Origin: a plasmid
Strand: one strand, 5' to 3'
Assembly: GCF_056746865.1 (NCBI RefSeq)
Contig: NZ_JBWKMP010000005.1
Length of the DNA: 64,000 nt
Below are positions 60,001 to 64,000 of this stretch, piece by piece (within the stretch, counting starts at the first letter, position 1; every line of letters starts with the position of its first letter). The position numbers are program-made.

Positions 60001-63000
60001 TTTCTTTAGCTACAATAGCTGCAAGAGAAATTCCTTCATTTGCGTTTCGCATAGAATTTTCCTCATACTATTCCTGTGACACTTAACACCATCAATAAAA
60101 TATGTAATGCAGTAATTTTTTTTAGCGTTTTTTTATAGACTTCAATAAAATCCTTATCCAGAAGTCTGATAATAAAAATACATAGTGCATTCATCGCTGC
60201 TCCTGTAAGCGGAATTAACAACGAAAGATGCATGATTTATTCCTTGTTTTCACTCTTGTCTTCGATGGTCATTACTTTAAGAGTTATTCCTTGCATGTCT
60301 GTAACAATAACTCTTGTTCCCGCAGGGTAGTTTTCATTGTGTAACGTCTCAACAGGCCAGAATGTATCACCAATAAGTAATTGCCCCTTGCCGTTCACAA
60401 TATCGTCACTGAGAGTAAATTCTTTTCCTTTAAAACGTGAATGCCCTGTGTTCACCAGGAGAGTATCTAATTTCTTATGTTTTTTGTCATAGAGGAACTT
60501 AATTATCGACGCCAGTATGCTGATTGATGCAAAGAAGCATATATTGGCTTCTTGTGATATCGGAAGAAAAAAGCCCACAATGGCGCTTGATAATGCACCA
60601 AGACTGATTAAGAGTAACCATCCTGTTCCGGTTATAATTTCAAGTGCAATACACAGAAGAAACAGTGTAAACCATAACATGGCTAATCTCCATGATAAAA
60701 GGGAGAAATTGAATAAAGAAGATGAAGGTAGTTATAAACGCCAAATGCATAAATTAGCAGAAAGAAGCCAAAGAATATGCCATTAAAACTCCATATTAAC
60801 AGGGGCAGCAGAGCCATCGCTATCATCACCCCTCCGAAGTTCAGCCATAATGGAAATATTGATGCGATGTGGTTTAGTATTTTTTCTCCTTTGTTCTCAT
60901 CTTTTGTAATAAAAAGAAGAAAGCTCCATGCCCCCATAGGGATTATATGTAAAATAAGAAGGATGAACCCATAAGTTTTCATTTAAATGATTTGCTCATT
61001 CGTGAATATGAATATGAGGACGGTGATTAAAACAATATTGTCACCGTCCGCTATCTGTTTTAAGACAAATATTGTTGAGCCTGTTTCATATCAACTTTGT
61101 GAGTATCCTGTGATACGTTTTTTAGCAGTTCACTGATACCTGCAACCGAACTCACCAGGCTACTTGAATCAAGCGGCATCATCACCAGTTTACTGTTTGA
61201 TGCTGTGCCAATTGCCTGGAGTGCTTCAGTGTATTTTTGCGCAATAAAGTAATTAACAGACTGAACGTCACCTTCAGCGATTGCATCCGACACCAGTTTT
61301 GTTGCGCGAGCTTCCGCTTCTGCCTGACGTTCGCGTGCTTCAGACTGAAGAAACGCTGATTGCCGTTCCCCTTCCGCTTTCAGTATTTGAGACTGTTTTT
61401 CTCCTTCCGCCTTCAGAATTTGTGACTGGCGTATACCTTCCGCTTCCAGAATCTGGGCACGCTTAGTACGTTCCGCTTTCATTTGCGCGTTCATCGCCTT
61501 AGTCAGTTCTTCTGGTGGTTTAACATCCCGAATTTCAATACGTGTGACCTTAATTCCCCACGGATCAGTTGCATAATCGACAACCGTTAACAGCTTAGAA
61601 TTGATGCTGTCACGTTGAGAAAGCATATCGTCGAGATTCATTCCACCAACGACAGTTCGGATATTGGTCATGACAAGATTTGAAATAGCTGATGCAAGAT
61701 TATCGACTTCATAAGCTGCCTTCGCTGCATCAATGACCTGGATAAAACAAACAGCATCGATAGTTACGTTTGCATTGTCTTTCGAAATAACTTCCTGTTT
61801 AGGAATATCCAGGACGGTTTCCATCATGTTGATCCGTTGACCTATGCGGTCCATAAACGGGATCAGGAAGTGAAGACCGGGGGAAAGCGTATGGGTATAT
61901 TTACCAAAGCGTTCCACTGTCCAGGCATTACCTTGCGGCACGATTTTGACGGCAGATTTAACGAATATCAGCGCGACTAAAATTAATAAGAGTAACGGAA
62001 TAGATGTAACTATTGGCGTAATTATAGCGTCAATCATGATTAATCCTCTCCCCATTCATCACAATATGCTTCAACCGGAGTTTTTCCTGCTTCATAATCA
62101 CCACGCCATGCTTCCGCATCGGCGGCATTTCCACCGCGTAACTCTGCGTAATCCATTAATAGCTCGTGCCATTCTTCAAATGTTACGGTTTGTTTAGTGG
62201 AACCAAAATCAGCCATATGTATTTCCTGCATTTTGTGGAGGTATCTCTTTGCAAATGAAATCTGAAATATGAACATCAACAGAAAAACACTTTCCTGCTT
62301 CTTTTTCTTTTGAGAAGTTTTTTCTGCATTCTTCAGCGGTCATAGGGAAGTCGCTGTAATGAGTCCATTTCACGGGGCCACCACCTGGTTTTTTGATGGT
62401 TGCGTTTATTTGGTACTTAGGCATTCAAAAATACCTCCACTCGATCACCTGTCTTTCTTGAACACATCCAGCGGCGCAGTTCTGTAAAACTATCCTGGAT
62501 CTCACAACGGGTACTTTTCATTGTGACAGTTGGTATATTGTCGTAGCTGGCATATGCAATCTCTTTTTTTGGGGTGCGCAATATGCCTTTGTCAATATCA
62601 AGAATCCTGAACGCACTAATTCTTCTTTTGTGCTCGTTAAATAGTGTTCGTTTAGTTGCTGTTATCTGCTTCTGTGCTTCCTGGTAAATGTAGGTAAGCA
62701 CATCATAAGATTGTTGCTGTGTAATAAGGAAATTACGGCTAACATCCGTTGTTGTGAGCGTTTTATTATTTCTTAATCCCCAATAAGCAACGATGATATA
62801 GAGTGGATATCCTTTCAAATCTGCCACACATTCAGGAATGACAGGATTAATTTTTAACTTACGCGCCATATTTTCTCCCGGTTGTTTGTCTGAAATAGAA
62901 ACATCCCCGGAATACAGCGTCATAAGCTAATTATGAAAAGTTGCAGCCACTCACTACAGGCTCTTTATCTGATTGTTCATCATCATGCATAGCTAAACCC

Positions 63001-64000
63001 CCTTACCTGGAGTGGAGACTGGCAAATCTGGTGTACTTCTGCGTTGCAGCCTGTACGACTTGCTCAGGGAGAGAGTGAGTGAGATTAACTCAACGCGAGT
63101 TCACCAAATAAGGGGGTTTAAGTATGCAGAATGATATTTGCGGATAAAGAGTCGTTACCTGTGTAGATGGCGCGGCACGTCACTCTGTTACGTAGCCCGT
63201 TGCTGACAGATGCCAGCGGTGCTTGAAATGCACGAATAATAACCTCCTTATGCCAGGGCTTTAGGCAATGACCGCTGTCCGGGGTTGTTAAAGAGCATGA
63301 GATGACAAGCGTTCTAACGGGCGTCAAAGAGTGCTCATTTTCCAGGCAATGAGCACAAAAAACGCGATGAACGCGCTTTTTACAATCATCTGGATAGTAT
63401 TGTGTGTGCGACATTTAAAACCTGTCAATGCCAGAAGAGCGATCTAATGATCTGTATAATATCTAAAAAACAGAATAATATTCTGTTTGTTAAATGGTGT
63501 ACGATCTAAAAATCTAGATAATACTGTTTGCGTGGTTTATTCGATCGTGTGAGTGGGTGTATGTAGTCAAAAAAACTTTTTTGAATATACAAAATTCTGA
63601 ATTTCTGATTTTGTAAGGTTTTGTATGGGGAACGTCAGTAAAGAAGGGGCTTCACTAGCTGTTCTGAAAACGATTTTGAAGCTGTCAGAGATGTGTGTTG
63701 AATCAAAAAGGAAACGAGCCAGGCTTGAACATCGTTGATCGATTGCGCCCATGCTGCTAAATTTGCAGGCAAGTTTTCCGCGATTTGTAAATGCAGAAAA
63801 CGAGGTGCTGAAATTTTGTTCGAGAACGTAAATTTCAGATAAAGAAAACCCCCGTAATCTCGTCTTTTCCAGGGAGCGCAGATTAGCGGGGGCTGACATC
63901 AAGGCAGAGCCTTGAGCTTATTTATTTCAGGTATGCTTGTTACCTGAGATGGAGTTTAATTCCATGAGAAGGAAATATCAACTCTTACAGTGCAAGCTAA

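What the first reader, a model, noticed from the sequence alone, without database searches (positions are those of the whole stretch)
62930..64000. Structured non-coding region with GATC cluster, palindromes and long hairpins: possible replication-control region
No convincing protein gene lies in the last ~1.1 kb. It contains a long-range inverted repeat AAACCCCCTTA (about 62990) with TAAGGGGGTTT (about 63107), a perfect palindrome AACAGAATA-at-TATTCTGTT (63468-63486), clustered GATC sites around 63440-63560 and 63730-63750, a long imperfect hairpin ccccc-gtaatct...agattag-cggggg (about 63860-63910) and a terminator-like hairpin caaggc-aga-gccttg followed by a T-rich run (about 63920-63950). 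No Rep initiator gene was found in the window, so the initiator probably lies just beyond it; these features would fit an antisense-RNA or leader control region and origin.
Basis: inference. Interest (0 to 1): 0.4.

Follow-up and report, generated by a model that had tools for sequence, protein, structure and literature searches.

The report
IncI2 plasmid repA antisense-RNA control region
This is the already-characterised copy-number control region that sits just upstream of the replication gene repA of IncI2 (mcr-1-type) plasmids. The origin of replication is not here, but the stretch does hold two conserved non-coding elements that I could not find described.

Summary
The window is an IncI2 conjugative plasmid; 62930-64000 matches 519 sequenced plasmids. 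repA starts at the base after the window end (64001).

**Known part.** The last ~250 nt are the repA mRNA leader. It carries:
- a CopA/Inc-like countertranscript on the minus strand (~63945 to ~63838, main hairpin 63849-63892 plus a U tail);
- the leader-peptide gene repR (ATG 63964);
- the stem-loop bound by the ProQ/FinO protein PcnR (63944-63990).

All of this was shown experimentally in the near-identical pHNSHP45 (PMC8053102).

**Origin.** "Origin" is not supported. The oriV homologue, with two perfect DnaA boxes, lies 160-550 bp downstream of repA. The whole window has no perfect DnaA box.

**Left ~800 bp.** This is the divergent control region of the leftward transfer-gene array. It holds a predicted promoter, a strongly structured leader and a 155-nt block conserved in three IncI2 lineages.

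**GATC cluster.** The GATC cluster and the palindrome are real. They are conserved at about the same distance from rep in IncI1/B/O and I-gamma plasmids, and absent in the IncFII(K) and IncL/M loci I checked. I found no description of them. Their function is inferred only.

Core finding: already known; low interest.

The parts
62417..62923 (-). CaiF/GrlA-family regulator gene, the first gene of the long leftward transfer (T4SS/pilus) gene array. The likely true start is the ATG at 62869, preceded by GGGAGA.
   Evidence: Pfam PF07180, E = 5e-10. RefSeq annotation. Gene order. The start codon is inferred from the sequence.
62940..63175 (-). Long imperfect hairpin in the leftward leader.
   Evidence: z = -7.95. 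A long hairpin of different sequence occupies the same place in the STEC1099 plasmid (z = -5.95). pE105-2 has a short one.
63146..63300 (-). 155-nt non-coding block, near-identical in three diverged IncI2-type lineages. On the minus strand it carries AAGGAGG followed by GTG and a short, non-conserved ORF.
   Evidence: Alignment. Its 1- and 2-nt indels argue against protein coding. Consensus fold. A metagenome scan found only the same three lineages. No Rfam match.
63331..63386 (.). Two hairpins specific to the window's lineage: GTGCTCATT/AATGAGCAC (63331-63356), and a weak terminator-like stem flanked by A and T runs (63358-63386).
   Evidence: Absent in the other lineages.
63399..63428 (-). 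Predicted sigma-70 promoter of the leftward transcript (TTGACA-18-CACAAT).
   Evidence: pE105-2 has TTGAAC-17-TAAAGT at the aligned place (read by eye). Prediction only.
63440..63547 (.). GATC cluster (63441, 63449, 63503, 63543) in 31% G+C DNA. It includes two 22-nt direct repeats, CGATCTAATGATCTGTATAATA and CGATCTAAAAATCTAGATAATA (63440-63461 and 63502-63523).
   Evidence: Conserved as a feature in pE105-2, the STEC1099 plasmid, and IncI1/B/O and I-gamma plasmids, with a shared motif CGATC(T/G)AATGATCT. Absent in IncFII(K) and IncL/M.
63469..63487 (.). Palindrome AACAGAATA-A-TATTCTGTT.
   Evidence: CAGAATnnnATTCTG lies at -530 from repA here, at -538 in IncI1/B/O, and at -841 in the STEC1099 plasmid, where an HTH gene is inserted.
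63735..63763 (+). Predicted repA promoter: -35 TTGATC (it contains the GATC at 63737), a 17-nt spacer, then TGcTAAATT.
   Evidence: Read from the sequence. It scores 8 of 12, below the scanner's threshold. It fits the published TSS only if -253 is counted from the second GTG (which gives 63768).
63756..64000 (+). repA mRNA leader. The published 5' end at -253 maps to 63756 or 63768, depending on which GTG is taken as +1.
   Evidence: PMC8053102, mapped through the alignment. The fold has z = -4.26.
63838..63945 (-). Countertranscript (AS RNA, ~108 nt). It has a 5' small stem-loop (63899-63915) and a main stem-loop (63849-63892), followed by UUUUCUUUAUC. The published 5' end at -68 maps to 63933 or 63945.
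   Evidence: PMC8053102 (5' RACE, promoter mutation). Folds. Weak CopA-like match, 17 bits, E = 2.2. Compensatory stem changes between lineages.
63953..63981 (-). AS RNA promoter, TTGATA-17-TAAACT.
   Evidence: The published CA-to-TT mutation at repR +16/+17 falls in this -35 box.
63944..63990 (+). Stem-loop around the repR start that PcnR (ProQ/FinO) binds. It differs from the published 47-nt RNA at two bases (63948, 63949).
   Evidence: PMC8053102 (EMSA, stem mutations).. Fold.
63964..64000 (+). repR leader-peptide ORF (MRRKYQLLQCKLSAACCD). It runs on to the TAG at 64018-64020 and overlaps both candidate repA GTG starts (64001, 64013).
   Evidence: The published positions (+5/+6 GA, +9 to +12 GAAA, +16/+17 CA, T23A giving TAA) all fit this ATG.
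63567..63902 (-). ORF annotated in RefSeq as a hypothetical protein. Probably not a gene.
   Evidence: 6 of 6 substitutions against pHNSHP45 are non-synonymous. No Pfam hit. It overlaps the AS RNA and the repA promoter. It is not conserved in the other lineages.

Best explanation
The last 1.1 kb of the window is the intergenic region of an IncI2 conjugative plasmid. On its left is the first gene of the leftward transfer-gene array, a CaiF/GrlA-type regulator. On its right is the replication initiator gene repA, which starts at the base after the window end.

**Right-hand ~250 nt: the repA leader.**
- A ~108-nt countertranscript is made from the minus strand. It has two stem-loops and an intrinsic terminator.
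- It pairs with the leader just upstream of the ribosome-binding site of an 18-codon leader ORF, repR.
- repR must be translated for repA to be translated, because the two are translationally coupled. The antisense RNA therefore lowers RepA synthesis and sets copy number.
- A second brake is the plasmid's ProQ/FinO protein PcnR, which binds the stem-loop that holds the repR start codon.
- These steps were shown experimentally in the near-identical plasmid pHNSHP45. Here they are mapped by sequence identity.

**Origin.** It is not in this region. It lies downstream of repA.

**Left-hand ~800 bp (inferred).** This serves the divergent transfer-gene array. It holds a predicted promoter, a highly structured leader with a conserved 155-nt block, and a GATC-rich repeat and palindrome module shared with IncI1-type plasmids. 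The role of that module is not known.
For: **Identity.** The region is 95-100% identical to 519 plasmid records. The eight whose typing I looked up are typed IncI2.

**repA position and family.**
- repA starts at 64001.
- RepA matches NF040977 RepA_IncFII_LM at E = 1e-92.
- It is 73-74% identical to IncI1/B/O RepZ.

**Published experiments (PMC8053102).**
- 5' RACE of both RNAs.
- A stop codon in repR abolishes repA-lacZ expression.
- A promoter mutation of the AS RNA derepresses expression.
- PcnR EMSA on the 47-nt stem-loop.

Every published mutation position fits the window sequence, and the region aligns at 96% with pHNSHP45.

**Promoter and folds.**
- Promoter TTGATA-17-TAAACT on the minus strand.
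- Folds: AS RNA z = -3.1 and -2.6; leader z = -4.3.

**Hairpin conservation.**
- The main hairpin is kept, with compensatory changes, in pE105-2, the STEC1099 plasmid and IncI-gamma.
- It starts ~152 nt before the annotated rep start in both I2 and I-gamma.

**oriV.**
- The homologue lies downstream of repA.
- It carries two perfect DnaA boxes, and the window has none.
Against: - No transcript data exist for this exact plasmid.
- The window differs from pHNSHP45 by an 8-nt deletion and six substitutions (63919-63949). These lie between the small hairpin and the repR stem-loop, and cover the 5' end of the AS RNA and two bases of the PcnR-bound RNA. Quantitative behaviour could therefore differ.
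- The published coordinates (-68, -253) fit canonical promoters only if counted from the second GTG (64013). Counted from 64001, they lie 20 nt from the -10 box (AS RNA) and inside the -10 region (repA). The exact 5' ends are therefore uncertain by 12 nt.
- Roles assigned to 62930-63750 rest on prediction and conservation only.
Confidence: 0.9

Rival explanations
1. The region contains the replication origin. On this view the GATC cluster, the AT-rich DNA and the repeats act as an oriC- or P1-like methylated origin next to rep.
For: - Four GATC in 103 bp of 31% G+C DNA.
- Two 22-nt direct repeats.
- GATCT-rich sequence resembling the oriC 13-mers (my own recollection, not tested).
- One 8-of-9 DnaA box at 63139.
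Against: - The segment homologous to the I-complex/IncFII oriV lies 160-550 bp downstream of repA. It is 70-79% identical there to more than 5000 plasmids.
- Both perfect DnaA boxes are in that segment, and the window has none.
- RepA belongs to the cis-acting IncFII/I-complex family.
Confidence: 0.04
2. The GATC cluster and palindrome (63440-63547) form an upstream regulatory module of the rep operon. Dam methylation state would be read by SeqA or by a methylation-sensitive DNA-binding protein. That would tie rep-leader transcription to passage of the replication fork.
For: **It travels with the replicon.**
- It is found at -560 to -458 from repA in IncI2 and at -599 to -454 in IncI1/B/O. The palindrome is at -530 versus -538.
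- The adjacent transfer modules are unrelated (TraA/NusG-like versus CaiF/GrlA).
- Published comparison reports IncI1-IncI2 similarity only around oriV and pilV (PMC7508951).

**Position relative to promoters.**
- In IncI-gamma a promoter-like TTGACG-16-TATTAG follows the cluster directly (read by eye).
- In the STEC1099 plasmid the cluster lies upstream of an HTH gene that precedes the repA leader.

**Spacing and prevalence.**
- Several GATC spacings lie near multiples of 10.5 bp.
- The IncI1 version is kept at 90% identity or more in 1446 records.
Against: - There is no experimental link.
- The mapped repA 5' end in pHNSHP45 lies 210-330 bp downstream of the cluster.
- The lacZ fusion that reproduced regulation started at -497 (window 63504, or 63516 counted from the second GTG). 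It therefore lacked the two left GATC sites and the palindrome, and possibly 63503 as well.
- IncFII(K) and IncL/M relatives do without the cluster.
Confidence: 0.3
3. The GATC cluster and palindrome regulate the divergent transfer-regulator promoter. The model is Dam/Lrp control as at pap or at traJ of pSLT, or H-NS silencing, rather than control of replication.
For: - The predicted leftward promoter (63428-63399) abuts the cluster.
- In pE105-2 and the STEC1099 plasmid a GATC sits in the spacer of the aligned promoter (read by eye).
- CGATCTTTT- and CGATCTAA-type motifs recall the pap GATC boxes (my own recollection, not tested).
- The cluster stays on the transfer-gene side of the HTH gene insertion in the STEC1099 plasmid.
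Against: - The first transfer genes differ between IncI1 (TraA) and IncI2 (CaiF/GrlA), and even within IncI2-type lineages (a 60-aa membrane protein in pE105-2). The cluster is nevertheless conserved.
- No Lrp or H-NS site was tested here.
Confidence: 0.3
4. The structured stretch 62940-63300 (the conserved 155-nt block plus the long hairpin) is a cis-regulatory RNA leader of the transfer operon. It would act through a short upstream ORF, or as an attenuator or antiterminator. The alternative is that it is a DNA-level site.
For: - The block is near-identical in three lineages while its flanks diverge.
- Its indels of 1 and 2 nt exclude protein coding.
- It lies downstream of a positionally conserved promoter and upstream of whichever gene comes first in the array.
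- The fold z-scores are extreme: -7.95 and -5.95.
- AAGGAGG plus GTG is conserved on the minus strand.
Against: - Only three lineages exist, so covariation is weak: 3 of 32 pairs.
- The metagenome scan added no diversity.
- There is no Rfam match.
- Transcription of this strand is not shown.
- The STEC1099 plasmid has two DnaA-box-like sequences next to the block, which would fit a DNA-level role.
Confidence: 0.4

Closest known systems
repA control region of IncI2 plasmid pHNSHP45 (AS RNA / RepR / PcnR; Yang et al., Nucleic Acids Res 2021, PMC8053102)
   Same: It is the same element, at 96% identity over the aligned 540 nt. The main hairpin, the repR ORF, the AS promoter boxes and the repA start are identical. 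The PcnR gene is present on this plasmid; its 3' end is at window 1-60.
   Different: - An 8-nt deletion and six substitutions at 63919-63949. These affect the AS RNA 5' end and two bases of the PcnR-bound stem-loop.
- They also create an in-frame ATG at 63949, where pHNSHP45 has GTG.
Inc RNA / repY / repZ control of IncI1 (ColIb-P9, R64) and IncB/O/K/Z plasmids (Rfam PK-repZ RF01087, PK-repBA RF01089)
   Same: - A homologous initiator (73-74% identity).
- A homologous oriV downstream of rep.
- An AAAACCCCC...GGGGG hairpin ~152 nt before rep.
- A leader peptide overlapping the rep start.
- A countertranscript.
- A GATC cluster and palindrome upstream.
   Different: - No pseudoknot. The loop-to-distal complementarity is 5 nt, at chance level (270 of 500 shuffles). 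It is 7-8 nt in I-gamma and pE105-2.
- No PK-repZ hit at E of 10 or less, against 194 bits in I-gamma.
- The loop lacks UUGGCG.
- The published work also reports no pseudoknot.
CopA / tap / repA control of IncFII plasmid R1 (Rfam CopA RF00042)
   Same: - A two-stem-loop countertranscript ending in an intrinsic terminator.
- Stem sequence CCCCG-UAAUCU...AGAUUA-CGGGG, close to the CopA consensus.
- The antisense RNA ends just upstream of the leader-peptide ribosome-binding site.
- Translational coupling. The authors draw this parallel with R1 themselves.
   Different: - It scores 17 bits against a gathering score of 60.
- There is no CopB-type repressor gene in this lineage. An unrelated HTH gene occupies that place in the STEC1099 plasmid, and no remnant of it is found here.
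- A ProQ/FinO protein acts on the mRNA instead.
Dam-methylation-dependent control regions (oriC/SeqA sequestration; pap and pSLT traJ Dam/Lrp switches). This is a resemblance only, for the GATC cluster.
   Same: Several GATC sites lie within about 100-150 bp of AT-rich DNA next to promoters. Several spacings are near helical repeats.
   Different: No binding protein, methylation pattern or phenotype is known. Membership was not tested. The comparison rests on my own recollection of those systems.

Membership tests
IncFII / I-complex antisense-RNA plus leader-peptide replication control | Adjacent initiator of the RepA_IncFII_LM family | tested here: met
   NF040977, E = 1e-92. 73-74% identity to IncI1/B/O RepZ. 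The gene starts at 64001, just outside the window.
IncFII / I-complex antisense-RNA plus leader-peptide replication control | Short leader ORF whose end overlaps the rep start (translational coupling) | tested here: met
   repR spans 63964 to 64020 and overlaps the GTGs at 64001 and 64013. The coupling itself was shown only in pHNSHP45 (PMC8053102).
IncFII / I-complex antisense-RNA plus leader-peptide replication control | Countertranscript with a stem-loop and intrinsic terminator, complementary to the leader upstream of the leader ORF | tested here: met
   Promoter. Hairpin plus U tail. Compensatory changes across lineages. The transcript was shown by 5' RACE in pHNSHP45. It was not measured for this plasmid.
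IncFII / I-complex antisense-RNA plus leader-peptide replication control | oriV downstream of rep | tested here: met
   It lies outside the window.
I-complex pseudoknot-activated control (Rfam PK-repZ / PK-repBA) | Complementarity between the stem-loop I loop and a site near the rep ribosome-binding site; a match to the Rfam model | tested here: not met
   Best complementarity is 5 nt, reached by 270 of 500 shuffles. No PK-repZ or PK-repBA hit at E of 10 or less. Positive controls: I-gamma 194 bits and pE105-2 30.6 bits.
CopA-like RNA (Rfam RF00042) | Score at or above the gathering threshold (60 bits) | tested here: not met
   17 bits, E = 2.2, with the same two-stem layout and a similar stem sequence. 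It works like CopA but is not a scored member.
IncFII-type control with a CopB repressor | Small repressor gene upstream of the repA leader | tested here: not met
   No conserved ORF in 63400-63750. No remnant of the STEC1099 HTH gene. IncFII(K) and IncL/M loci do have such genes.
Replication origin (I-complex oriV, or an oriC/P1-type methylated origin) | Homology to a characterised ori; DnaA boxes; initiator-binding repeats | tested here: not met
   The ori homology is downstream of repA. The window has no perfect DnaA box. The only repeats are two 22-nt copies at 82% identity. Origin activity itself cannot be tested with these tools.
PcnR (ProQ/FinO) target stem-loop | Stem-loop enclosing the repR start codon, bound by PcnR | tested here: inconclusive
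   The sequence matches the published 47-nt RNA at 45 of 47 positions, and the stem (UUCC/GGAA, GAGUU/AACUC) is kept in the fold. Binding to this variant was not tested.

The most novel reading that the evidence does not exclude
The GATC-rich repeat and palindrome module (63440-63547) is an undescribed Dam-methylation-responsive control element of I-complex replicons. It is conserved about 450-600 bp upstream of the initiator gene in roughly 2000 sequenced IncI1, I-gamma, B/O and IncI2 plasmids. It would couple transcription of the rep leader, or of the divergent transfer regulator, to the replication and methylation state of the plasmid. Separately, the 155-nt conserved block and long hairpin (62940-63300) may be a new cis-regulatory RNA leader of the IncI2 transfer operon.
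Probability: 0.25. Interest if true: 0.55.

Novelty: already known. Interest (0 to 1): 0.2.

Why it matters
IncI2 plasmids are the main vehicles of the colistin-resistance gene mcr-1. Their copy-number circuit (antisense RNA, leader peptide RepR, PcnR) determines fitness cost and persistence. That circuit is already published, so recognising it here adds only annotation value:
- It places the real features.
- It shows that a RefSeq 'hypothetical protein' overlapping them is probably spurious.
- It shows that the IncI2 antisense RNA is a diverged positional homologue of the I-complex RNAI hairpin. One recent paper states that IncI2 has no detectable RNAI homologue (PMC10286972).

What could matter beyond this is the unannotated GATC and palindrome module shared by IncI1-type and IncI2 replicons, and the conserved structured leader of the IncI2 transfer operon. 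If functional, they would be new control points for the replication or transfer of very common resistance plasmids.

Tried and rejected
**Origin in the window.** Rejected.

**Protein genes.**
- ORF 63118-63414 (minus strand): no Pfam hit, and the conserved block under it has frame-breaking indels.
- ORF 63567-63902 (minus strand): 6 of 6 non-synonymous changes.
- ORF 63625-63738 (plus strand): all four substitutions against pHNSHP45 change the protein (read).
- The ORF is no remnant of the STEC1099 HTH gene (tblastn E above 1).

**Known RNA families.** Only sub-threshold rdlD- and CopA-like hits on the AS RNA hairpin. Nothing on 62860-63460.

**I-complex pseudoknot.** Absent in this lineage.

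**The + strand 'terminator' 63899-63915.** The T run that follows it is displaced by a 6-nt insertion in pHNSHP45. It is better read as the 5' stem-loop of the countertranscript.

**More diversity for the 155-nt block.** The metagenome scan returned 25 loci, but only the same three lineages plus one chance hit. No covariance model was built for this reason.

**Single-stranded-DNA (Frpo-like) promoter for the long hairpin.** Considered and set aside. oriT is about 15 kb away. By my own reasoning about which strand is transferred, that strand has the sense of the CaiF mRNA and so could not be its template.

**Binding sites.** LexA, ArgR, Fur and Ter readings of the palindrome were compared from memory only, and none fitted. 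The GAAT-N3-ATTC spacing differs from the ARG box.

**Literature.** Searches for a described role of the GATC cluster in IncI plasmids found nothing.

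
Full report
**What the window is.** The stretch 62900-64000 is 95-100% identical to 519 plasmid records. Almost all are ~58-66-kb conjugative plasmids of E. coli, Salmonella, Shigella and Klebsiella. The eight whose typing I looked up are typed IncI2, MOBP; the five predicted conjugative are also MPF_T. In records where the match is internal, the next base after window position 64000 is the GTG start of repA. 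The window holds neither repA nor the DNA downstream of it. Its first base lies in the 3' end of the ProQ/FinO gene pcnR. The leftward neighbours are a CaiF/GrlA-family regulator (62417-62923, Pfam E = 5e-10), then DUF1187, SPFH and NfeD genes, then a long minus-strand array of T4SS and type IV pilus genes.

**Check of the observation.**
- The 11-nt inverted repeat is at 62995-63005 / 63109-63119 and extends to 32-nt arms.
- The palindrome is 63469-63487, with one central base.
- GATC sites are at 63441, 63449, 63503 and 63543, against 155 in the whole 64 kb. Only two places in the window reach 4 in 120 bp.
- The 63730-63750 'cluster' is a single site.
- The long hairpin is at 63849-63892 and the small one at 63899-63915. 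Both sit 10-25 nt left of the stated positions.
- There is no convincing protein gene. The ORF that RefSeq calls a hypothetical protein (63567-63899, minus strand) has 6 of 6 non-synonymous differences from pHNSHP45. It is not conserved in diverged relatives.

**The right-hand part is a published control circuit.** Yang et al. (PMC8053102) dissected the region upstream of repA in the IncI2 plasmid pHNSHP45. They reported:
- a repA mRNA 5' end at -253;
- a leader ORF, repR, that overlaps the repA GUG and must be translated for repA-lacZ expression;
- a ~108-nt antisense RNA starting at -68 and ending at a predicted intrinsic terminator;
- derepression when the -35 box of its promoter is mutated (CA to TT at repR +16/+17);
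- binding of PcnR to a 47-nt stem-loop that holds the repR start.

pHNSHP45 aligns with the window at 96%. All published positions fit the ATG at 63964: +5/+6 GA, +9 to +12 GAAA, +16/+17 CA, and T23A giving TAA.

The promoter scan finds TTGATA-17-TAAACT on the minus strand (63981-63953), and its -35 box is the mutated one. The countertranscript folds into a small 5' stem-loop (63899-63915) and a long stem-loop (63849-63892), followed by UUUUCUUUAUC. The leader folds with z = -4.26.

One detail stays open. Counted from the annotated GTG (64001), the published 5' ends map to 63933 and 63756. Those positions fit no canonical -10 box. Counted from the second in-frame GTG (64013), they map to 63945 and 63768. 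Those fit TTGATA-17-TAAACT and a TTGATC-17-TGcTAAATT promoter (63735-63763) that I read from the sequence. I could not see the paper's Figure S4, because no supplement is held.

The window differs from pHNSHP45 by an 8-nt deletion and six substitutions at 63919-63949.

**Family relations.**
- RepA is a strong member of RepA_IncFII_LM. It is 73-74% identical to IncI1/B/O RepZ, 60-68% to IncFII(K)-type initiators and ~41% to IncL/M.
- The main hairpin shares the AAAACCCCC...GGGGG frame with IncI-gamma. It starts ~152 nt before the annotated rep start in both.
- The stems differ by compensatory changes among four lineages.
- The I-complex pseudoknot is present, with covariation, in I-gamma (UGGCGGA/UCCGCCA) and in the pE105-2 lineage (UGGCAGAG/CUCUGCCA). 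In the window and pHNSHP45 the best match is 5 nt, at chance level.
- Rfam agrees. PK-repZ scores 194 bits in I-gamma and 30.6 bits in pE105-2, with no hit in the window lineage. There, only a sub-threshold CopA-like match appears: 17 bits, with the same two-stem layout.
- So the element works like R1 CopA/tap/repA, is homologous to the I-complex system, and lacks the pseudoknot. The authors reported the same.

**The origin is elsewhere.** The 400 bp that start 160 bp after the repA stop are 70-79% identical to more than 5000 IncI1/B/O/K/Z and IncFII(K) plasmids. In the IncI-gamma locus I checked, the match lies at the same offset from rep. They carry two perfect DnaA boxes, while the whole window has none. 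Published comparative annotation places iterons 176-301 bp downstream of rep. [quoted passage not shown]

**The left-hand 800 bp.** I compared two diverged IncI2-type lineages: pE105-2 (36 kb) and a 49-kb STEC plasmid.
- A promoter-like site sits on the minus strand at the same aligned place. It is TTGACA-18-CACAAT at 63428-63399 here.
- A 155-nt block (63146-63300) is almost invariant while its flanks diverge. It has 1- and 2-nt indels, so it is not coding.
- A long hairpin of lineage-specific sequence lies between the block and the first gene.
- The minus-strand RNA 62900-63395 folds with z = -7.95.
- The block has a conserved AAGGAGG plus GTG on the minus strand, with a short ORF whose peptide is not conserved.
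- A metagenome scan with an invariant 21-mer returned only the same three lineages. Covariation evidence therefore stays thin.
- My best reading is a cis-regulatory leader of the transfer operon. This is an inference.

**The GATC cluster and palindrome.** Density is 4 GATC in 103 bp here, 5 in 116 bp in pE105-2, 6 in 134 bp in the STEC plasmid and 7 in 146 bp in IncI-gamma. The background is 2.3-3.3 per kb, and this DNA is only ~30% G+C.
- The sequences are homologous. CGATC(T/G)AATGATCT and CGATCTA recur.
- The palindrome CAGAATnnnATTCTG is at -530 from repA here and at -538 in IncI1/B/O.
- IncFII(K) and IncL/M relatives lack the cluster.
- The IncI1 version is kept at 90% identity or more in 1446 records, with no annotated feature.
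- The flanking transfer modules of IncI1 and IncI2 are unrelated (PMC7508951). The module therefore seems to travel with the replicon.
- I found no description of it.
- The published lacZ fusion began at -497, so it excluded the palindrome and the two left GATCs.
- Whether the module acts on rep, on the transfer regulator, or on both is open.

**Verdict.** The origin guess is wrong. The core is already known, and the residual novelty lies in the conserved but unexplained upstream elements.

Noticed in passing
window 63440-63547; L035 1166-1311; L034 2335-2481 with L007 1-4; L006 4223-4356; L005 4317-4432: A GATC-rich repeat and palindrome module is conserved between IncI2 and IncI1/B/O and I-gamma replicons, at about the same distance upstream of rep. 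It is unannotated in ~2000 plasmid records, and I found no literature on it.
   Followed up: partly
window 63146-63300: A 155-nt non-coding block is near-identical in three diverged IncI2-type lineages. It lies between a predicted leftward promoter and the first transfer-array gene, and has no Rfam match.
   Followed up: partly
L006 4496-4738: In one IncI2-type lineage (STEC1099 plasmid) an 80-aa HTH regulator gene sits between the GATC cluster and the repA leader. This is the place CopB or RepC occupies in IncFII and IncL/M. The window has no remnant of it.
   Followed up: partly
L005 4721-4878: The 36-kb pE105-2 lineage is typed IncI2 but keeps an IncI1-like pseudoknot, with compensatory changes (UGGCAGAG/CUCUGCCA). 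It looks like an intermediate between IncI1 and IncI2 control regions.
   Followed up: partly
window 63949: In this variant AGATGG replaces the AAGTGG of pHNSHP45. That creates an ATG five codons upstream of, and in frame with, the repR ATG. The same two substitutions lie in the PcnR-bound stem-loop.
   Followed up: no
window 62869 versus 62923: The annotated start of the CaiF/GrlA gene has no Shine-Dalgarno sequence. An in-frame ATG 54 nt downstream is preceded by GGGAGA, and it matches the length of the STEC1099 homologue (147 aa).
   Followed up: no
window 1245-1275 and 5959-5989; partial copies 2945-2977 and 7659-7697; L001 8354-8391: A repeated hairpin followed by GGGGATATAAGGCGC: two exact copies against 0.02 expected. 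It lies upstream of rightward genes between the partition region and oriT, and may be repeated promoter or single-strand elements of the leading region.
   Followed up: no
window about 1110-1230: Several copies of CTTTACA/TGTAAAG-type repeats lie upstream of the ParA/MipZ-like gene. They are probably its centromere or operator.
   Followed up: no
window 63567-63899 (minus strand): RefSeq annotates a hypothetical protein (WP_171265264.1) that overlaps the antisense RNA gene and the repA promoter. Its substitution pattern argues that it is not a gene.
   Followed up: yes
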